Below are positions 2,727-34,822 of a stretch of 64,000 nucleotides of DNA, in pieces. The first letter of the stretch is position 1, and each line of letters opens with the position of its first letter. Location of the stretch: assembly GCA_963768275.1 (NCBI GenBank), contig CAVYHH010000003.1, positions 44,810-108,809 of the forward strand. Reading direction: 5' to 3'. A program made the position numbers and the translations under genes. The stretch comes from an uncultured Acidobacteriota bacterium. Lineage in GTDB: Bacteria; Acidobacteriota; Terriglobia; Acidiferrales; UBA7541. Below the pieces are notes generated by a model. It was given only the letters and a program-made list of their open reading frames with translations. It had not been told where the DNA came from and made no database searches.

Positions 2727-2999
2727 AAGTCCTTCCATGAGAAGGCCGGTTAGTGTCAAGCCGGTTTTTCTTTTTCTTATCAGGGGTTTTTGCCGTTTAA
2801 GCCGGTCCGCCTCTGTCGCCATCCTTCCATCCGCACTCTTTGGTGAGCGATTGTTTCGCTCGGTGCAAGTTGGGCGTCCTTCATTCAGTAGGTGCTGCTA
2901 CCTGAGAATCGACCTTGGCTCTCATCTCTGAGAGTTGGGCCAGGACTTGGGCGCAGTCACCTGAACTCGGCGGTGAGCTCGGCTCTTTCGTTTCAACCT
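2727..2999 (-). ncRNA. candidate bridge/seek-type guide RNA region in the IS 3' arm (copy 1)
   Basis: Identical to 8919..9191. See that feature and the findings. Confidence 0.35.
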
Positions 3000-4154
3000 C
3001 TAGGCCACGGCGCGTACCCCTTGGTGGTTGTTGTTGCGCAGTGGTTCATACGCTTCTCCGCTCACCCACAACTTGTGCAGCAGGACCGACAACTTGCGTG
3101 CGACGGCAACCACCGCTCGCTTCTTGGCATTTTTTCCTCCGCGCTCGGCCAGCTTCCATCCCCAACGCCGCAGATCGCTGTCCTGTCCAAAAGGCCCGAG
3201 AATGTAATGCGCGCCTTGCACCATCAGCGTTCTCAGATAACGGTCGCCTTCCTTGCTGATGTGCAGTTGCGGCTCGCTCTTGCCGGAGTTCCTGCGCCCG
3301 GGACGCAGTCCCAGAAAACATCCCACATCGCGGCTGTGACGAAATCGGCGTGGATCGTCCAGCGTCAACACGTAGGTCAACGCAATCAGCGTCCCCACAC
3401 CCTTCACTTGTTTCAGCCGCGCCACTTCAGGGTGAACTTCCTTGGCGATCTGTTCGATCCGCTGATCGTATTCCTTGATGCGCTCGTTGAGCGATTCGAT
3501 CTCTCGCAACAGCGGATCCAGCGCCTCACGCAATTCCTGGCTCAACCCCTCGGAGCTGTCTCGATTCATTTGCTCCGTGCCGCATTTCTTCAGCCGCTCG
3601 CCATAGGATTTCGTCAACCCGCGCGCCGCATTCACTAGAGCCGTGCGCGAACTGACCAGCGCCGCTCGTGCGCGAATCACTGTCAGTTGAATTTGCGCCT
3701 GCGCACTGCGATGCCGCACTGGACCCAATAAGCCGGGATCGATCCGTGCGAGCCGCGCCAGCGTCCGCGCGTCGAGCTGATCATCCTTGCGACTGCTCTC
3801 GCCAATCAGCCGCACGTTGCGCGCATGCGCTACGATCACTTCGTGATCCATCCGTGCCAACTGCCGGCTCACCCACGGCGAGTGCGTTCCCGTTTCCAGT
3901 GCGATCCGGCAGCGCGGCATCTTACCGAACGCCTGGCGGATTCCGTTCGGTGTGGTCGGCACACTGCGTTCCAAAATCACATTCCCCATCTCATCCAAAA
4001 CGCAGTAACAGCTGCTTCGATCTCCCAAGTCCAACCCGATGGTCAGTGCGGGCTGTTTGAAAATTTTGTTTCCGTTTTTCACCACAGTGCTATTCTTTCG
4101 CATAAGCCGGTCTCCTTTCCATTGCGCCTTGAGCGCGTCAATCGTTGGGAGCAT
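3000..4154 (-). CDS. IS110-family transposase (DEDD RuvC-like N-domain plus Transposase_20 C-domain)
   Basis: A 384-aa ORF with LTIGLDLGDRSS, ALETGTHS, KDDQLDARTLARLA, VKGVGTLIALTYV, RPGRRNSGKS..ISKEGDRYLR and AVVAVARKL. The likely true start is the internal ATG at 4103 (MRKNST..), which lies 8 nt after AAGGAG. Confidence 0.95.
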   Translation of the reverse strand: MLPTIDALKAQWKGDRLMRKNSTVVKNGNKIFKQPALTIGLDLGDRSSCYCVLDEMGNVILERSVPTTPNGIRQAFGKMPRCRIALETGTHSPWVSRQLARMDHEVIVAHARNVRLIGESSRKDDQLDARTLARLARIDPGLLGPVRHRSAQAQIQLTVIRARAALVSSRTALVNAARGLTKSYGERLKKCGTEQMNRDSSEGLSQELREALDPLLREIESLNERIKEYDQRIEQIAKEVHPEVARLKQVKGVGTLIALTYVLTLDDPRRFRHSRDVGCFLGLRPGRRNSGKSEPQLHISKEGDRYLRTLMVQGAHYILGPFGQDSDLRRWGWKLAERGGKNAKKRAVVAVARKLSVLLHKLWVSGEAYEPLRNNNHQGVRAVA

Positions 4155-4193
4155 ATCGCATCCCGTCGGAGACCGGCCTTCTCATCCCATCTG

Positions 4194-4400: not shown

Positions 4401-5546
4401 ATGCTTATGCCTCGTCTCAGGAAGACCCTTACGCGGGCACTCTGCGGATCAGTTGCAATTGGTCTAACCGTGCCATTGTTCTCACTGCTAGCTGTCTCGG
4501 CCAGCTTCGCACAGGCCCCGGCCCTGCCCGCAGTCCAGGCGACAGCCAAGAGCCCGAACTTCAAAGACGGGAAGGTGGTACTCGAGGAGCGCCGCGTCCG
4601 GGCGTATTCGTACCTTGGGGGCGATGAAAATATCATCCGGCAAACGCTCCAGCGGATCGTGAGGCAAGAAGGCGACGCTGCCGGAGGGTGGGTCTATGAA
4701 TGGAGCGTGCTCGGCAAGTACTACGAGAACCGCGGCGACACGCTTCTCGAGACCGGACAGCGACGTCCGGCCCTCGACGCCTACATGACCTCGAACGTCT
4801 ACTACGCGCTCGCCTGGTTCCCGAGGATTAACTCGGAACAGGAGGCGAAGGCCTATGGCGCACAACTGCGGGTGTACCAGAAGGGTGGCAAGCTGTTCGA
4901 AGTGCCGCTGGAGTTGGTGAAAGCTCCGTACAAGGACGGTTTTATCACGACCTATCTGCACAAGCCGTCCGGCATCGAGAGGCCGCCGCTCGTCATCTGG
5001 TACGGGGGCGTCGACCAGTATAAGGCGAACCACTGGCGCCCCATCCAGGACATGCTCGCCAAGGGCTTTGCCGTCGCCACGCTCGACCTGCCCGCCTTCG
5101 GCGAGAGCAGGCAGTGGCCCCCGGATACCAAGGCGGAGGCCAATTTCGCCGTTCTCGACACGTACATGAAGCGAGAGGACATCGACACCAAGCGGATCAG
5201 CTTCTTCGGGCAAAGCTATGGCGGGGCCGCCTCGTTGCGCGCGGCGCTGCGAAACGATCCGCGCGTGAAGGCCATCGTGGCTATGTGCGCGGGGCTACAC
5301 TTGGGCGAGAAAAACTCGTTGGCACCCGAGGCAAAACCAGGAGACAAGCTGATTAACGGACCTTTGCTCGTGGCCAACGGCACGCGCGATGCCGGCAACC
5401 CCGTCCCGGACCTGGTGTCGACCTACCAGTCGGCGAAGGAGGGCGATCTGTGGCTGCTCGGCCGCGGCGAACATTGCGCCGTGGAGTACTGGCCAGTCAT
5501 GATCCCGCAAATGGCCGACTGGCTGAAAGAGAAGATCAATAAGTGA
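4401..5546 (+). CDS. secreted alpha/beta hydrolase (FrsA/DUF1100-like esterase)
   Basis: A 381-aa ORF with AAAGGA upstream of the ATG. The signal peptide ends ..SASFAQA. The nucleophile elbow is GQSYGG, and the C-terminal part is typical of alpha/beta hydrolases. Confidence 0.8.
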   Translation: MLMPRLRKTLTRALCGSVAIGLTVPLFSLLAVSASFAQAPALPAVQATAKSPNFKDGKVVLEERRVRAYSYLGGDENIIRQTLQRIVRQEGDAAGGWVYEWSVLGKYYENRGDTLLETGQRRPALDAYMTSNVYYALAWFPRINSEQEAKAYGAQLRVYQKGGKLFEVPLELVKAPYKDGFITTYLHKPSGIERPPLVIWYGGVDQYKANHWRPIQDMLAKGFAVATLDLPAFGESRQWPPDTKAEANFAVLDTYMKREDIDTKRISFFGQSYGGAASLRAALRNDPRVKAIVAMCAGLHLGEKNSLAPEAKPGDKLINGPLLVANGTRDAGNPVPDLVSTYQSAKEGDLWLLGRGEHCAVEYWPVMIPQMADWLKEKINK

Positions 5547-5612
5547 CGACTTGAGTCTTCTAGATTAACTGCGTCGCATTCATATGGGCCAACTAGATTG
5601 ATAGGCCGTGCC

Positions 5613-6490
5613 AAATCCTTCCATGAGAAGGCCGGTTAGTGTCAAGACGGTTTTGTAGTTGCCTTTGGTCGTCGAGTGGTCTTGCTTAGAACCGAGCCGC
5701 CTCTGTCGCCATCCTTCCATCCGCACTCTTTGGTGAGCGATCTTCGCTCGGTGCAAGTTGGGTGTTCTCGTTTCAGTAGGTGCTGCTACCTGAGAATCGA
5801 CCTCTTCTCCCACCGATTCGGTGAGAGTTGGGCCCCAGGATTTAGTCGCAGTCACCTGGGCTCGGCGGTTGAGCTCGGCTGTCGGGATCGCAACTCTCTA
5901 GGCCACTTCCCGCATCGCTTTCTGGCTATTGCGCGGTGGTTCGTACACCTCTCCGCCTACCCACAACCGATGCAGCAGTACCGCCAGCTTTCGAGCCACG
6001 GCCACAACCGCTCGCTTCTTGGCATTTTTTCCTCCTCGCTCCGCAAGCTTGCGCCCCCATCTCCGCAGATCAATGTCTTCTCCAAAAGGTCCCAGAATGT
6101 AATGCGCTCCCTGCACCATCATCGTCCGCAGATACCGGTCTCCTTCTTTGCTGATGCCCTTCTGGGGTTCGCTCTGGCCAGAGTTCCTGCGTCCAGGTCG
6201 TAACCCCAGAAAACAGCCGACCTGGCGACTCTTCGGAAACCGATACGAGTCCTCGATCGTCAGGACATACGTCAGTGCGATCTGTGTTCCCACACCCTTC
6301 ACCTGCTTGAGCAAGGACACTTCCGGGTACACTTGCTTGGCGATTTTCTCCATCCGTTCGTCGTATTCCTTGACGCGCTCGTTCAGCGATTCGATTTCTT
6401 TCAACAGCGGTACCAGAACCTCGCGCAACTCCGCGCTCAATCCCTCGGCCAGCTTCTCGCTCACCTGATCCGGCCTTCTCATCCCATCTG
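5613..6490 (-). mobile_element. internally deleted, diverged relative of the IS110-family element (non-autonomous)
   Basis: It has both ends: right ..catggaaggattt, left cagatgggatgagaaggccgg. The 3' arm is homologous to the full IS. The left end is fused directly to mid-transposase sequence, so about 190 N-terminal codons are missing. Confidence 0.8.
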
Positions 6491-6521
6491 AAAAACGCGC
6501 TTGCCGGTAAATGACCGACAT
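5898..6521 (-). pseudogene. truncated IS110-family transposase (C-terminal Transposase_20 half only)
   Basis: The 207-aa ORF aligns with residues from about 195 to 384 of the full transposase at roughly 80 percent identity by eye (LKEIESLNERVKEYDE.., VKGVGTQIALTYV, RPGRRNSGQS). The first 20 codons read through the IS left end and the flank. The DEDD domain is absent. Confidence 0.85.
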
Positions 6522-7724: not shown

Positions 7725-7763
7725 CAGATGGGATGAGAAGGCCGGTCTCCGACGGGATGCGAT

Positions 7764-8918
7764 ATGCTCCCAACGATTGACGCGCTCAAGGCGCAATGGA
7801 AAGGAGACCGGCTTATGCGAAAGAATAGCACTGTGGTGAAAAACGGAAACAAAATTTTCAAACAGCCCGCACTGACCATCGGGTTGGACTTGGGAGATCG
7901 AAGCAGCTGTTACTGCGTTTTGGATGAGATGGGGAATGTGATTTTGGAACGCAGTGTGCCGACCACACCGAACGGAATCCGCCAGGCGTTCGGTAAGATG
8001 CCGCGCTGCCGGATCGCACTGGAAACGGGAACGCACTCGCCGTGGGTGAGCCGGCAGTTGGCACGGATGGATCACGAAGTGATCGTAGCGCATGCGCGCA
8101 ACGTGCGGCTGATTGGCGAGAGCAGTCGCAAGGATGATCAGCTCGACGCGCGGACGCTGGCGCGGCTCGCACGGATCGATCCCGGCTTATTGGGTCCAGT
8201 GCGGCATCGCAGTGCGCAGGCGCAAATTCAACTGACAGTGATTCGCGCACGAGCGGCGCTGGTCAGTTCGCGCACGGCTCTAGTGAATGCGGCGCGCGGG
8301 TTGACGAAATCCTATGGCGAGCGGCTGAAGAAATGCGGCACGGAGCAAATGAATCGAGACAGCTCCGAGGGGTTGAGCCAGGAATTGCGTGAGGCGCTGG
8401 ATCCGCTGTTGCGAGAGATCGAATCGCTCAACGAGCGCATCAAGGAATACGATCAGCGGATCGAACAGATCGCCAAGGAAGTTCACCCTGAAGTGGCGCG
8501 GCTGAAACAAGTGAAGGGTGTGGGGACGCTGATTGCGTTGACCTACGTGTTGACGCTGGACGATCCACGCCGATTTCGTCACAGCCGCGATGTGGGATGT
8601 TTTCTGGGACTGCGTCCCGGGCGCAGGAACTCCGGCAAGAGCGAGCCGCAACTGCACATCAGCAAGGAAGGCGACCGTTATCTGAGAACGCTGATGGTGC
8701 AAGGCGCGCATTACATTCTCGGGCCTTTTGGACAGGACAGCGATCTGCGGCGTTGGGGATGGAAGCTGGCCGAGCGCGGAGGAAAAAATGCCAAGAAGCG
8801 AGCGGTGGTTGCCGTCGCACGCAAGTTGTCGGTCCTGCTGCACAAGTTGTGGGTGAGCGGAGAAGCGTATGAACCACTGCGCAACAACAACCACCAAGGG
8901 GTACGCGCCGTGGCCTAG
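7764..8918 (+). CDS. IS110-family transposase
   Basis: Translation identical to the other three copies. An alternative SD-supported start is at 7815. Confidence 0.95.
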   Translation: MLPTIDALKAQWKGDRLMRKNSTVVKNGNKIFKQPALTIGLDLGDRSSCYCVLDEMGNVILERSVPTTPNGIRQAFGKMPRCRIALETGTHSPWVSRQLARMDHEVIVAHARNVRLIGESSRKDDQLDARTLARLARIDPGLLGPVRHRSAQAQIQLTVIRARAALVSSRTALVNAARGLTKSYGERLKKCGTEQMNRDSSEGLSQELREALDPLLREIESLNERIKEYDQRIEQIAKEVHPEVARLKQVKGVGTLIALTYVLTLDDPRRFRHSRDVGCFLGLRPGRRNSGKSEPQLHISKEGDRYLRTLMVQGAHYILGPFGQDSDLRRWGWKLAERGGKNAKKRAVVAVARKLSVLLHKLWVSGEAYEPLRNNNHQGVRAVA

Positions 8919-9191
8919 AGGTTGAAACGAAAGAGCCGAGCTCACCGCCGAGTTCAGGTGACTGCGCCCAAGTCCTGGCCCAACTCTCAGAGATGAGAGC
9001 CAAGGTCGATTCTCAGGTAGCAGCACCTACTGAATGAAGGACGCCCAACTTGCACCGAGCGAAACAATCGCTCACCAAAGAGTGCGGATGGAAGGATGGC
9101 GACAGAGGCGGACCGGCTTAAACGGCAAAAACCCCTGATAAGAAAAAGAAAAACCGGCTTGACACTAACCGGCCTTCTCATGGAAGGACTT
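8919..9191 (+). ncRNA. candidate bridge/seek-type guide RNA region in the IS 3' arm (copy 2)
   Basis: A non-coding arm between the transposase stop and the right end. It contains ccaagtcctg (8968-8977, reverse complement of REP tail caggacttgg), ttctcagg (9010-9017, sense copy of the left half-site) and atggaagga (9088-9096, copy of the IS terminus at 9180-9188). Local hairpins lie at 8984-8999 and 9056-9074. Blocks are conserved or variable relative to the deleted relative. Confidence 0.35.
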
Positions 9192-9683: not shown

Positions 9684-9861
9684 TTTGCCAAGTCCGCGAT
9701 TTCTTCCAGACCAAACTGGAAGCCTCCTGTATCCATCCAGGGGCGTGCAGACAATTGTGACTCCTAAATTGAAGGATCAGCTATAGCGCGGAAGTACTGC
9801 TATAGCGGAAGCCACAACTCGTCCCAACGGGCATCACCCACCGTAAGACTGCAAGGCTCGA

Positions 9862-9890
9862 CTCCCGAGAAACGATTTTCAGGACTTGGG
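9862..9890 (+). repeat. REP-like unit with intact (unoccupied) tail caggacttgg
   Basis: Sequence ctcccgagaaacgattttcaggacttggg. The 10-mer caggacttgg lies at 9880-9889. Confidence 0.7.
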
Positions 9891-30435: not shown

Positions 30436-30474
30436 CAGATGGGATGAGAAGGCCGGTCTCCGACGGGATGCGAT

Positions 30475-31629
30475 ATGCTCCCAACGATTGACGCGCTCAA
30501 GGCGCAATGGAAAGGAGACCGGCTTATGCGAAAGAATAGCACTGTGGTGAAAAACGGAAACAAAATTTTCAAACAGCCCGCACTGACCATCGGGTTGGAC
30601 TTGGGAGATCGAAGCAGCTGTTACTGCGTTTTGGATGAGATGGGGAATGTGATTTTGGAACGCAGTGTGCCGACCACACCGAACGGAATCCGCCAGGCGT
30701 TCGGTAAGATGCCGCGCTGCCGGATCGCACTGGAAACGGGAACGCACTCGCCGTGGGTGAGCCGGCAGTTGGCACGGATGGATCACGAAGTGATCGTAGC
30801 GCATGCGCGCAACGTGCGGCTGATTGGCGAGAGCAGTCGCAAGGATGATCAGCTCGACGCGCGGACGCTGGCGCGGCTCGCACGGATCGATCCCGGCTTA
30901 TTGGGTCCAGTGCGGCATCGCAGTGCGCAGGCGCAAATTCAACTGACAGTGATTCGCGCACGAGCGGCGCTGGTCAGTTCGCGCACGGCTCTAGTGAATG
31001 CGGCGCGCGGGTTGACGAAATCCTATGGCGAGCGGCTGAAGAAATGCGGCACGGAGCAAATGAATCGAGACAGCTCCGAGGGGTTGAGCCAGGAATTGCG
31101 TGAGGCGCTGGATCCGCTGTTGCGAGAGATCGAATCGCTCAACGAGCGCATCAAGGAATACGATCAGCGGATCGAACAGATCGCCAAGGAAGTTCACCCT
31201 GAAGTGGCGCGGCTGAAACAAGTGAAGGGTGTGGGGACGCTGATTGCGTTGACCTACGTGTTGACGCTGGACGATCCACGCCGATTTCGTCACAGCCGCG
31301 ATGTGGGATGTTTTCTGGGACTGCGTCCCGGGCGCAGGAACTCCGGCAAGAGCGAGCCGCAACTGCACATCAGCAAGGAAGGCGACCGTTATCTGAGAAC
31401 GCTGATGGTGCAAGGCGCGCATTACATTCTCGGGCCTTTTGGACAGGACAGCGATCTGCGGCGTTGGGGATGGAAGCTGGCCGAGCGCGGAGGAAAAAAT
31501 GCCAAGAAGCGAGCGGTGGTTGCCGTCGCACGCAAGTTGTCGGTCCTGCTGCACAAGTTGTGGGTGAGCGGAGAAGCGTATGAACCACTGCGCAACAACA
31601 ACCACCAAGGGGTACGCGCCGTGGCCTAG
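30475..31629 (+). CDS. IS110-family transposase
   Basis: An identical 384-aa translation. An alternative start is at 30526. Confidence 0.95.
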   Translation: MLPTIDALKAQWKGDRLMRKNSTVVKNGNKIFKQPALTIGLDLGDRSSCYCVLDEMGNVILERSVPTTPNGIRQAFGKMPRCRIALETGTHSPWVSRQLARMDHEVIVAHARNVRLIGESSRKDDQLDARTLARLARIDPGLLGPVRHRSAQAQIQLTVIRARAALVSSRTALVNAARGLTKSYGERLKKCGTEQMNRDSSEGLSQELREALDPLLREIESLNERIKEYDQRIEQIAKEVHPEVARLKQVKGVGTLIALTYVLTLDDPRRFRHSRDVGCFLGLRPGRRNSGKSEPQLHISKEGDRYLRTLMVQGAHYILGPFGQDSDLRRWGWKLAERGGKNAKKRAVVAVARKLSVLLHKLWVSGEAYEPLRNNNHQGVRAVA

Positions 31630-31902
31630 AGGTTGAAACGAAAGAGCCGAGCTCACCGCCGAGTTCAGGTGACTGCGCCCAAGTCCTGGCCCAACTCTCA
31701 GAGATGAGAGCCAAGGTCGATTCTCAGGTAGCAGCACCTACTGAATGAAGGACGCCCAACTTGCACCGAGCGAAACAATCGCTCACCAAAGAGTGCGGAT
31801 GGAAGGATGGCGACAGAGGCGGACCGGCTTAAACGGCAAAAACCCCTGATAAGAAAAAGAAAAACCGGCTTGACACTAACCGGCCTTCTCATGGAAGGAC
31901 TT
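31630..31902 (+). ncRNA. candidate bridge/seek-type guide RNA region (copy 3)
   Basis: Identical to 8919..9191. Confidence 0.35.
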
Positions 31903-33356: not shown

Positions 33357-33629
33357 AAGTCCTTCCATGAGAAGGCCGGTTAGTGTCAAGCCGGTTTTTC
33401 TTTTTCTTATCAGGGGTTTTTGCCGTTTAAGCCGGTCCGCCTCTGTCGCCATCCTTCCATCCGCACTCTTTGGTGAGCGATTGTTTCGCTCGGTGCAAGT
33501 TGGGCGTCCTTCATTCAGTAGGTGCTGCTACCTGAGAATCGACCTTGGCTCTCATCTCTGAGAGTTGGGCCAGGACTTGGGCGCAGTCACCTGAACTCGG
33601 CGGTGAGCTCGGCTCTTTCGTTTCAACCT
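33357..33629 (-). ncRNA. candidate bridge/seek-type guide RNA region (copy 4)
   Basis: Identical to 8919..9191 (reverse complement). Confidence 0.35.
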
Positions 33630-34784
33630 CTAGGCCACGGCGCGTACCCCTTGGTGGTTGTTGTTGCGCAGTGGTTCATACGCTTCTCCGCTCACCCACA
33701 ACTTGTGCAGCAGGACCGACAACTTGCGTGCGACGGCAACCACCGCTCGCTTCTTGGCATTTTTTCCTCCGCGCTCGGCCAGCTTCCATCCCCAACGCCG
33801 CAGATCGCTGTCCTGTCCAAAAGGCCCGAGAATGTAATGCGCGCCTTGCACCATCAGCGTTCTCAGATAACGGTCGCCTTCCTTGCTGATGTGCAGTTGC
33901 GGCTCGCTCTTGCCGGAGTTCCTGCGCCCGGGACGCAGTCCCAGAAAACATCCCACATCGCGGCTGTGACGAAATCGGCGTGGATCGTCCAGCGTCAACA
34001 CGTAGGTCAACGCAATCAGCGTCCCCACACCCTTCACTTGTTTCAGCCGCGCCACTTCAGGGTGAACTTCCTTGGCGATCTGTTCGATCCGCTGATCGTA
34101 TTCCTTGATGCGCTCGTTGAGCGATTCGATCTCTCGCAACAGCGGATCCAGCGCCTCACGCAATTCCTGGCTCAACCCCTCGGAGCTGTCTCGATTCATT
34201 TGCTCCGTGCCGCATTTCTTCAGCCGCTCGCCATAGGATTTCGTCAACCCGCGCGCCGCATTCACTAGAGCCGTGCGCGAACTGACCAGCGCCGCTCGTG
34301 CGCGAATCACTGTCAGTTGAATTTGCGCCTGCGCACTGCGATGCCGCACTGGACCCAATAAGCCGGGATCGATCCGTGCGAGCCGCGCCAGCGTCCGCGC
34401 GTCGAGCTGATCATCCTTGCGACTGCTCTCGCCAATCAGCCGCACGTTGCGCGCATGCGCTACGATCACTTCGTGATCCATCCGTGCCAACTGCCGGCTC
34501 ACCCACGGCGAGTGCGTTCCCGTTTCCAGTGCGATCCGGCAGCGCGGCATCTTACCGAACGCCTGGCGGATTCCGTTCGGTGTGGTCGGCACACTGCGTT
34601 CCAAAATCACATTCCCCATCTCATCCAAAACGCAGTAACAGCTGCTTCGATCTCCCAAGTCCAACCCGATGGTCAGTGCGGGCTGTTTGAAAATTTTGTT
34701 TCCGTTTTTCACCACAGTGCTATTCTTTCGCATAAGCCGGTCTCCTTTCCATTGCGCCTTGAGCGCGTCAATCGTTGGGAGCAT
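33630..34784 (-). CDS. IS110-family transposase
   Basis: An identical 384-aa translation. An alternative start is at 34733. Confidence 0.95.
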   Translation of the reverse strand: MLPTIDALKAQWKGDRLMRKNSTVVKNGNKIFKQPALTIGLDLGDRSSCYCVLDEMGNVILERSVPTTPNGIRQAFGKMPRCRIALETGTHSPWVSRQLARMDHEVIVAHARNVRLIGESSRKDDQLDARTLARLARIDPGLLGPVRHRSAQAQIQLTVIRARAALVSSRTALVNAARGLTKSYGERLKKCGTEQMNRDSSEGLSQELREALDPLLREIESLNERIKEYDQRIEQIAKEVHPEVARLKQVKGVGTLIALTYVLTLDDPRRFRHSRDVGCFLGLRPGRRNSGKSEPQLHISKEGDRYLRTLMVQGAHYILGPFGQDSDLRRWGWKLAERGGKNAKKRAVVAVARKLSVLLHKLWVSGEAYEPLRNNNHQGVRAVA

Positions 34785-34822
34785 ATCGCATCCCGTCGGA
34801 GACCGGCCTTCTCATCCCATCT

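What the first reader, a model, noticed from the sequence alone, without database searches (positions are those of the whole stretch)
5613..6490. The deleted IS relative shows a compensatory change between its internal antisense segment and its flank
The 878-bp relative keeps both ends and a homologous 3' arm but lacks the DEDD half of the transposase. The two arms align as alternating conserved and variable blocks. In the block where the full IS reads cccaagtcctgg (transposase sense), the relative reads actaaatcctgggg (plus-strand 5831-5850: ggccccaggatttagtcgca). Its right junction is ..catggaagGATTTgg (5613-5625 on the plus strand: aaatccttccatg), where the full IS has ..catggaagGACTTgg. 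The C-to-T change in the junction/target pentamer is therefore mirrored by a G-to-A change in the internal segment (caggaCttgg versus caggaTttag). The adjacent hairpin is also kept structurally with a different sequence: ctctc-agagat-gagag in the full IS versus ctcccaccg-att-cggtgagag in the relative. This is the signature of a programmable guide, not of a fortuitous match. It also suggests non-autonomous elements that keep the RNA and the ends.
Basis: seen in the sequence. Interest (0 to 1): 0.7.

Follow-up and report, generated by a model that had tools for sequence, protein, structure and literature searches.

The report
Deleted IS1111-type element with matching guide RNA
A truncated copy of an RNA-guided insertion sequence still encodes its guide RNA, and one base of that guide matches a variant base in the DNA it sits in. 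This is what the bridge-RNA/seekRNA mechanism described in 2024 predicts, so the case is clear but not new.

Summary
The 872-bp element R (5618-6489, minus strand) is an internally deleted IS110-family element of the IS1111 type. It keeps both ends, the 13-bp subterminal inverted repeats, the C-terminal half of the transposase and the whole 3' non-coding RNA region.

Unoccupied copies of the target repeat show that the recombination core is AG. They also show that GACTT/GATTT belongs to the target, not to the element.

The internal segment (V1) is the top-strand target guide. A second segment, UUCUCAGG, is the bottom-strand guide, and the two overlap on the target as described for seekRNAs.

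In 87 non-redundant junctions from Acidobacteriota genomes and this window, the guide base opposite target position +3 predicts the flank base:
- C-guides: 52 C, 7 G, 4 T.
- G-guides: 21 G, 1 C, 1 T.
- The one T-guide (R) lies on T (Fisher p = 1.7e-12).

Left-flank positions covary with the second guide in the same way. The programmable-guide reading is therefore supported, but it is the known bridge RNA/seekRNA mechanism.

I found no second copy of this deletion, so there is no evidence that R moved after it lost its transposase. Structural covariation of the hairpin is not statistically supported.

The parts
5618..6489 (-). Deleted IS1111-type element R, 872 bp counting the AG core at both ends. 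The element proper is 5620-6487.
   Evidence: Boundaries come from comparing occupied and unoccupied target repeats.
5610..5617 (-). Right half of the target (RT +1..+8 = GATTTGGC). The variant T(+3) is at 5615.
   Evidence: Unoccupied repeats read AG-GACTTGG.
6490..6495 (-). Left half of the target (LT -6..-1 = TTTTTC). Position -3 is T where the repeat consensus and guide2 have C.
5779..5856 (-). Target-binding module of the seekRNA/bridge RNA (78 nt). It has an outer stem GGUG(A)CUGC/GCAGCACC, two guide strands and an apical hairpin.
   Evidence: Fold -34.2 kcal/mol, z = -3.5, same architecture as in the full IS. The outer stem is invariant in 26 relatives.
5833..5847 (-). V1, the top-strand target guide (RNA 5'-GACUAAAUCCUGGGG). 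It pairs with target C-AG-GATTTGG. The key A is at 5841, opposite T(+3).
5789..5796 (-). guide2, the bottom-strand target guide (RNA UUCUCAGG = LT-5..-1 + core + RT+1).
   Evidence: It covaries with the left flank in the family: -4 72/77, -3 65/77, -2 56/77.
5807..5827 (-). Apical hairpin CUCUCACCG-AAU-CGGUGGGAG (9 bp). The full IS has CUCUC-AGAGAU-GAGAG (8984-8999).
   Evidence: Covariation is not significant.
5711..5720 (-). Left donor guide AUGGAAGGAU. It is identical to the top strand of the right end, ATGGA-AG-GA(T).
   Evidence: In L080 the end CATAGAAG is mirrored by GGAUAGAAGG.
5623..5635 (-). Right subterminal inverted repeat CCGGCCTTCTCAT
6470..6482 (-). Left subterminal inverted repeat ATGAGAAGGCCGG. 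The deletion junction lies directly inside it, between 6469 and 6470 (GGCCGG|ATCAGG).
5898..6521 (-). Open 207-aa ORF. Its start lies in the flank. It covers the coiled-coil and C-terminal Tnp domain only and has no DEDD domain.
   Evidence: R-specific changes are 4 synonymous and 5 non-synonymous.
7726..9186 (+). Full IS copy B. The transposase is at 7764-8918, the target-binding module at 8957-9027, V1 at 8966-8978 (key G at 8972), guide2 at 9010-9017 and the left donor guide at 9088-9097.
2732..4192 (-). Full IS copy A
30437..31897 (+). Full IS copy C
33362..34822 (-). Full IS copy D

Best explanation
R is an internally deleted copy of an IS110-family, IS1111-type insertion sequence. It belongs to a different lineage from the four full copies in the window: 96% nt identity to elements in other Acidobacteriota MAGs, against 78% to the resident IS.

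Like its relatives, it encodes a seekRNA/bridge RNA downstream of the transposase gene. That RNA's target-binding module carries two short guides. V1 pairs with the top strand of the target across the AG core and the right half (C-AG-GAYTTGG). guide2 (UUCUCAGG) pairs with the bottom strand across the left half and the core.

The element recombines at AG inside a REP-like repeat, ...CGTTTCTC-AG-GACTTGG... R's lineage carries A instead of G at the V1 position opposite target +3. It sits in a repeat variant with T instead of C at +3, so a Watson-Crick pair is kept.

Shown here: the boundaries, the core, the guide-target complementarity and the family-wide covariation.

Inferred: that the RNA is made and binds the transposase; that the A variant existed before the insertion; and that the deletion happened in place afterwards.
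For: - Family membership: PF01548 + PF02371 and NF033542 'IS110 family RNA-guided transposase' at 231 bits against a cut-off of 140. The subterminal repeats are 13 bp and perfect, and about 270 nt of non-coding sequence lies downstream against 36 nt upstream.
- Core and boundaries: unoccupied target repeats in the related loci and in the window define the AG core.
- Guide-flank covariation: V1 base against flank base at +3 gives 52/63 C-guides on C, 21/23 G-guides on G and the one T-guide on T, Fisher p = 1.7e-12. guide2 against the left flank matches at 72/77, 65/77 and 56/77 positions. No flank permutation out of 10000 reaches the observed values.
- Donor guide: it covaries with the element end in L080.
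- Fold: both modules fold alike, with z about -3.4.
- Recurrence of the variant: V1 = AAA occurs independently in a soil metagenome fragment with a different hairpin and a different guide2.
- Published mechanism: in IS1111 seekRNAs the top-strand match lies 5' of the bottom-strand match and the two overlap on the target. Natural retargeting is documented for ISEc11 versus ISXne4 (PMC11187229). The IS621 bridge RNA is described in PMC11208160 and PMC11208158.
Against: - R is the only element with a T-guide whose flank is available, so its own match is one observation (about p = 0.06 against the background).
- The V1 G-to-A change is one of six R-specific substitutions in 280 nt of non-coding sequence. 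It could therefore be a late mutation.
- An RNA G could already wobble-pair with T.
- R's left-flank variant (T at -3) is not compensated in guide2.
- Rfam has no matching family.
- No expression data exist.
- The right donor guide could not be located convincingly.
- Stem covariation is not significant.
Confidence: 0.85

Rival explanations
1. Coincidence. R's parent carried the common G guide and inserted at a T(+3) repeat variant through a tolerated G-T wobble. V1 then mutated G to A by chance while the dead element decayed.
For: Four of 63 C-guide insertions lie on T(+3). The A is R-specific among its close relatives, one of six such changes in the non-coding region. The ORF shows 5 non-synonymous against 4 synonymous R-specific changes, including P-to-S, S-to-I and L-to-P at conserved sites, which suggests decay.
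Against: The joint chance is small: roughly 0.06 for a T site, times 6/280, times 1/3 for hitting that base with the complementary change. The same position is the one that varies between lineages in step with the flank (G, C, A). AAA occurs again in an unrelated sublineage.
Confidence: 0.1
2. R is an active non-autonomous element. It moved to this site after losing its transposase, using the resident full-length transposase in trans together with its own guide RNA.
For: R keeps both subterminal repeats, the terminal 18 nt on the left and 27 nt on the right identical to the resident IS, and an intact RNA module whose guide matches its own flanks. Mini-IS constructs with only the ends are moved in trans by ISEc11 transposase plus seekRNA (PMC11187229). 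A MITE-like relative is known for ISPpu9 (PMC12288879).
Against: There is one copy in the window. The deletion junction is absent from metagenome contigs. The other deletion derivatives (L086, L087) are single copies with different deletions. Only 18 nt of the left end remain, whereas the published mini-IS used 50-84 nt. The resident transposase is only 78% identical to R's own in the shared C-terminal part (alignment A1).
Confidence: 0.12
3. There is no guide. The internal segment resembles the flank because the IS has captured a copy of the same REP-like repeat.
For: V1 read on the plus strand is identical to 9-11 nt of the repeat.
Against: The similarity stops after 10-11 nt for V1 and 8 nt for guide2. 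The two segments have opposite polarity and both centre on the crossover point. They vary between IS lineages in step with independent insertion sites.
Confidence: 0.02

Closest known systems
IS1111-group insertion sequences with a seekRNA (ISEc11, ISXne4, ISPa11, ISKpn4; Siddiquee et al. 2024, PMC11187229)
   Same: A DEDD transposase with the GL-P----SG motif, subterminal inverted repeats and a long non-coding region downstream of tnp. The RNA has a top-strand match 5' of a bottom-strand match, and the two overlap on the target. Natural retargeting occurs by changes in the guide. The target-binding module is 71-78 nt, against 82-96 nt for published seekRNAs.
   Different: The host phylum (Acidobacteriota) and the target (a REP-like repeat with an AG core) differ. 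The retargeting here is a single base, not a replaced block. No RNA or activity data exist for this element.
IS621 bridge RNA (IS110 group; Durrant et al. 2024 PMC11208160; Hiraizumi et al. 2024 PMC11208158)
   Same: Left and right guides pair with opposite strands around a 2-nt core that is present at both ends of the inserted element. There is a separate donor-binding guide, and a bulged A in the loop-closing stem.
   Different: The RNA lies at the 3' end rather than the 5' end. The order of the guides is reversed. The core is AG, not CT. The subterminal repeats are 13 bp rather than 2-3 bp. The handshake positions and the right donor guide are not established here.
ISPpu9 / MITEPpu9 of Pseudomonas putida (Pares-Guillen et al. 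2025, PMC12288879)
   Same: Recombination at an AG dinucleotide inside REP sequences, and a short transposase-less derivative that keeps the ends.
   Different: MITEPpu9 is multi-copy and carries the Ssr9 sRNA, which is not needed for transposition. R is single-copy and carries the guide RNA itself.

Membership tests
IS110 family, IS1111 group | DEDD (RuvC-like) N-terminal domain plus Transposase_20 C-terminal domain | tested here: met
   Full copies: PF01548 (1.9e-17) and PF02371 (3.8e-18); NF033542 at 231 bits against a cut-off of 140. R has PF02371 only, as expected for a deletion.
IS110 family, IS1111 group | Subterminal inverted repeats of 7-17 bp | tested here: met
   ATGAGAAGGCCGG / CCGGCCTTCTCAT, 13 bp and perfect, set 5 and 3 nt in from the core.
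IS110 family, IS1111 group | The longer non-coding region lies downstream of tnp | tested here: met
   36 nt upstream (7728-7763) against about 266 nt downstream (8919-9184).
IS110 family, IS1111 group | GL-P----S(T)G motif in the C-terminal domain | tested here: met
   GLRPGRRNSG is present in the full transposase and in R's ORF (by inspection).
IS110 family, IS1111 group | Site- and orientation-specific insertion with a short core at both ends and no longer duplication | tested here: met
   All 89 insertions lie in the same repeat at the same AG. Unoccupied repeats have one AG.
seekRNA / bridge RNA | Two short RNA segments complementary to opposite strands of the target, overlapping at the crossover, with the top-strand match 5' in the IS1111 type | tested here: met
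   V1 pairs with C-AG-GACTTGG(G). guide2 equals TTCTC-AG-G. The overlap is CAGG.
seekRNA / bridge RNA | Guide bases covary with target bases across relatives | tested here: met
   +3: Fisher p = 1.7e-12. -4/-3/-2: 72, 65 and 56 of 77. Permutation 0/10000.
seekRNA / bridge RNA | Donor-binding guides complementary to the joined element ends | tested here: inconclusive
   The left donor guide AUGGAAG(GA) was found and covaries in L080. No convincing right donor guide was found.
seekRNA / bridge RNA | The RNA is expressed, processed and bound by the transposase | not testable with these tools
   No transcriptome data. No sigma-70-like promoter inside R.
seekRNA / bridge RNA | Match to a curated RNA family | tested here: not met
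   No Rfam 15 hit at gathering threshold in the window. This says only that no curated model covers this lineage.
Non-autonomous (MITE-like) derivative mobilised in trans | Both ends kept, transposase lost | tested here: met
Non-autonomous (MITE-like) derivative mobilised in trans | Several copies with the same internal structure at different sites | tested here: not met
   One copy in the window. The deletion junction has 0 hits in metagenome contigs. The complete source genome could not be searched.
Non-autonomous (MITE-like) derivative mobilised in trans | A compatible autonomous partner in the same genome | tested here: inconclusive
   The resident IS has identical termini and an identical donor guide. 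Its transposase is only 78% identical in the shared part (alignment A1). Compatibility is untested.

The most novel reading that the evidence does not exclude
Deletion derivatives such as R could act as 'guide satellites'. They have lost the transposase but still produce a seekRNA with a slightly different target code. They might use the resident transposase both to move themselves and to divert the resident IS to variant repeats such as GATTT. Transposase-less elements would then widen the target range of an RNA-guided IS population.
Probability: 0.1. Interest if true: 0.55.

Novelty: new member of a known kind. Interest (0 to 1): 0.3.

Why it matters
This is a clean natural example of single-base reprogramming of an IS1111-type guide RNA, in a phylum where these elements have not been studied experimentally. 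With the 89 related insertions it gives a base-by-base map for this lineage: AG core, top-strand guide from about -1 to +7, bottom-strand guide from -5 to +1, and a left donor guide. That map could help anyone who wants to use these recombinases. It does not change the understanding of the mechanism. The suggestion that transposase-less copies keep and use their own guide remains open.

Tried and rejected
- My first model (core CT in the full IS and TT in R, element starting at CAGATGGG and ending at GGAAGGA) was wrong. Unoccupied repeats showed that the core is AG and that CAG and GACTT are target.
- Rfam gave no hit.
- The variable block V4 (UGAAGGACG versus ACGAGAACA) is not a target guide. 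It is constant across the whole R clade whatever the flank.
- A right donor guide could not be assigned. CC(U)A-CU-GA near 9025-9034 fits only with a bulge.
- The many 190-245-aa 'C-terminal only' homologues are mostly not deletions. P0024 is a frameshifted full-size element at a single locus. P0013 is interrupted by another IS.
- Metagenome scan for R's deletion junction: 0 hits.
- Scan for V1 = AAA: one truncated fragment without a right junction.
- Look-ups of the closest proteins, P0002 and P0048, gave no further AAA element.
- The window's own transposase is not on record in the contig index.
- Stem covariation across 26 relatives is no better than shuffles, because most columns never vary.
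- No microhomology was found at the deletion junction, and the junction does not lie at an AG pseudo-target.

Full report
**What is in the window.** Four nearly identical copies of a 1461-bp element (counted with both AG cores) lie at 2732-4192 (-), 7726-9186 (+), 30437-31897 (+) and 33362-34822 (-). A shorter relative, R, lies at 5618-6489 (-) and is 77.6% identical to them over its 3' 860 bp.

The full copies encode a 384-aa protein. It hits PF01548 (DEDD_Tnp_IS110) and PF02371, and it hits NCBIfam NF033542 'IS110 family RNA-guided transposase' at 231 bits against a cut-off of 140. The elements have perfect 13-bp subterminal inverted repeats, ATGAGAAGGCCGG / CCGGCCTTCTCAT. They have 36 nt of non-coding sequence upstream of the gene and about 266 nt downstream. 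These are the features of the IS1111 group of the IS110 family (PMC11187229; PMC11208160).

R keeps 18 nt of the left end, ATGGGATGAGAAGGCCGG. It then jumps into the middle of the transposase gene; the junction GGCCGG|ATCAGG lies between 6469 and 6470. From there R runs to the normal right end. Its 207-aa ORF hits PF02371 only.

The 3' arms of R and the full IS align as alternating identical and variable blocks. One variable block, V1, reads GCCCAAGUCCUGG in the full IS and GACUAAAUCCUGGGG in R. The right flank reads GACTT in the full copies and GATTT in R.

**Where the element ends.** I first assumed that the sequence shared by all copies, from CAGATGGG to GGAAGGA, was the element, with a CT/TT core. 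That was wrong.

A protein-pattern scan of 185,579 species genomes returned 80 loci. Nearly all come from Acidobacteriota MAGs (Terriglobia, Acidoferrales); a few are binned as other phyla. They are 88-96% identical to R's ORF, and most carry full-length elements of 1463-1477 bp.

Their left flanks are copies of one repeat. Unoccupied copies of that repeat occur in the same loci and in the window. Examples are ...CCGATAATCCCGTTTCTCAGGACTTGG... (L027, L029, L037) and GACTTCTCAGGACTTGG in the window.

Occupied sites read TTCTC-AG|ATGGG...ATGGA|AG-GACTTGG, and unoccupied sites read TTCTC-AG-GACTTGG. The crossover core is therefore AG. CAG on the left and GACTT on the right are target. The circle junction would be ...CAT-GGA-AG-ATGGG-ATG....

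An AG core inside REP sequences is also what was reported for ISPpu9 (PMC12288879).

**The guides.** V1 is complementary to the target top strand across the core: RNA 5'-CCCAAGUC-CU-GG against DNA C-AG-GACTTGGG.

A second, conserved segment, GAUUCUCAGG, is identical to the top strand TTCTC-AG-G. It would therefore pair with the bottom strand.

The two matches overlap on CAGG, and the top-strand match lies 5' of the bottom-strand match. This is the arrangement described for IS1111 seekRNAs (PMC11187229).

Both segments sit in one internal loop. It is closed by an invariant stem, GGUG(A)CUGC/GCAGCACC, with a bulged A, and it is topped by a hairpin. The 78-nt module of R folds at -34.2 kcal/mol (z = -3.5). 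The 71-nt module of the full IS folds at -29.4 kcal/mol (z = -3.4), with the same architecture.

A third segment, AUGGAAGGAU, equals the top strand of the right end (ATGGA-AG-GA). In L080 the end CATAGAAG is mirrored by GGAUAGAAGG. I read this segment as the left donor guide. I could not place a right donor guide with confidence.

**Is the match more than chance?** For R alone the evidence is modest. T at +3 is found in 2 of about 36 unoccupied repeats.

For the family it is not in doubt. In 89 non-redundant insertions (87 with a readable right junction) the V1 base opposite +3 predicts the flank base:
- C-guides: 52 C, 7 G, 4 T.
- G-guides: 21 G, 1 C, 1 T.
- The single T-guide, R, lies on T.

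Fisher's exact test on the C/G table gives p = 1.7e-12.

guide2 variants UUCUC, UUCAC, UAAUC and UUAUC go with left flanks TTCTC, TTCAC, TAATC and TTATC. The matches at -4, -3 and -2 are 72, 65 and 56 of 77. No permutation of the flanks out of 10000 reaches the observed identity on either side.

Copies within one genome share ancestry. Each insertion is still a separate choice of site, so the test addresses site choice.

The four full copies add a small piece of evidence. A, B and C are identical except for one base in the shared block, and that base is the flank position -2.

**R in particular.** R's nearest relative is L001, at 96.0% nt identity. R therefore descends from a lineage other than the resident IS.

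Relative to five close relatives, R has nine private codon changes. Four are synonymous and five are non-synonymous, including P-to-S, S-to-I and L-to-P at otherwise conserved sites. It also has six private changes in 280 nt of non-coding sequence. One of these is the V1 G-to-A. None touches guide2, the donor guide or the stems.

A late chance mutation cannot be excluded, and an RNA G could already wobble-pair with T. The joint probability of a T site and exactly this complementary change is still of the order of 1e-4 to 1e-3. In addition, V1 = AAA recurs in a soil metagenome fragment with a different hairpin and a different guide2.

R's target also has T instead of C at -3, and guide2 does not follow. 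Mismatches of this kind are common in the family.

**The hairpin.** The full IS has CUCUC-AGAGAU-GAGAG and R has CUCUCACCG-AAU-CGGUGGGAG at the same place. Across 26 relatives 92% of cells are paired, but shuffled controls do as well, and only two pairs show double changes. The set is too closely related to prove the structure by covariation.

**Non-autonomous element?** R has what a mobilisable mini-element needs. Mini-IS constructs with only the ends are moved by ISEc11 transposase and seekRNA supplied in trans (PMC11187229). Those experiments also show that the flanks must match the seekRNA, which R's right flank does.

There is no sign that R moved after the deletion:
- The window holds one copy.
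- The deletion junction is absent from metagenome contigs.
- The other true deletion derivatives I found, L086 and L087, have different deletions and are single copies.
- Several apparent 'C-terminal only' homologues turned out to be frameshifted or interrupted full-size elements.

Ordinary decay in place is the simplest reading.

**Comparison and verdict.** In mechanism and in family membership this is an IS1111-type element with a seekRNA/bridge RNA. All sequence-level defining features that could be tested were met. Exceptions are a right donor guide, which I could not locate, and a curated Rfam model, which does not exist for this lineage. RNA expression and protein binding cannot be tested here.

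The principle was published in 2024, including natural retargeting (ISEc11 versus ISXne4). The finding is a new member of a known kind. Its modest added value is a single-base example and a position map for an Acidobacteriota lineage.

Noticed in passing
window about 1418, 9858-9889, 12173, 17131, 27582, 35700, 46266, 61221 (17-mers, both strands): Unoccupied copies of the REP-like repeat that this IS family targets (...CCGATAATCCCGTTTCTC-AG-GACTTGGCC.ATCA). Two copies near 9858-9889 lie back to back as a palindrome. The outer parts of the repeat can pair (for example ATTCCCA...TGGGAAT). The nature of the repeat was not examined.
   Followed up: partly
window 2732-4192 (-) with 7726-9186 (+); 30437-31897 (+) with 33362-34822 (-): The four full copies form two inverted pairs, enclosing about 3.5 kb (including R and two genes) and about 1.5 kb. 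A, B and C are identical apart from one flank base, which suggests a recent burst. Inverted copies of a recombinase-type IS could invert the enclosed segments.
   Followed up: no
L056 and L060, about 3160 onwards: The seekRNA region is interrupted inside guide2 (GGACGCTA|TCTCTAACG...) by about 1.4 kb. The right end follows at 4734.
   Followed up: no
L081 300-500 (-): A soil-metagenome fragment carries only the last part of tnp and the target-binding module, with V1 = AAA. It stops one base after guide2's AG-G, next to a tRNA-like region.
   Followed up: partly
L080 right end and RNA: The right end CATAGAAG (others have CATGGAAG) is mirrored by GGAUAGAAGG in the RNA (others have GGAUGGAAGG). 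This is a donor-side compensatory change.
   Followed up: partly
window 9160-9165 and 5643-5648 (right ends): A perfect TTGACA lies in the right end. Across the inferred circle junction it would be followed, after 18 nt, by GAAGAT. This may be a weak junction promoter of the kind known for ISEc11.
   Followed up: no
window 5898-6521 (-): R's ORF stays open for 207 codons and starts at an ATG in the flank. It would give a protein with only the coiled-coil and Tnp domain, including the SG motif.
   Followed up: partly
transposase residues 185-289 (window 8316-8630): A weak, sub-threshold NCBIfam hit to the TIGR-Tas RNA-guided endonuclease model NF052498 (22.7 bits, cut-off 100).
   Followed up: no
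alignment A2 columns 23-24 and 59 (window 5833-5834 and 5800 in R): The bases after V1 (GG[G/C/A]G) and the base before guide2 (GAGG[U/A]CG) change together in several lineages without forming standard pairs. This is unexplained.
   Followed up: no
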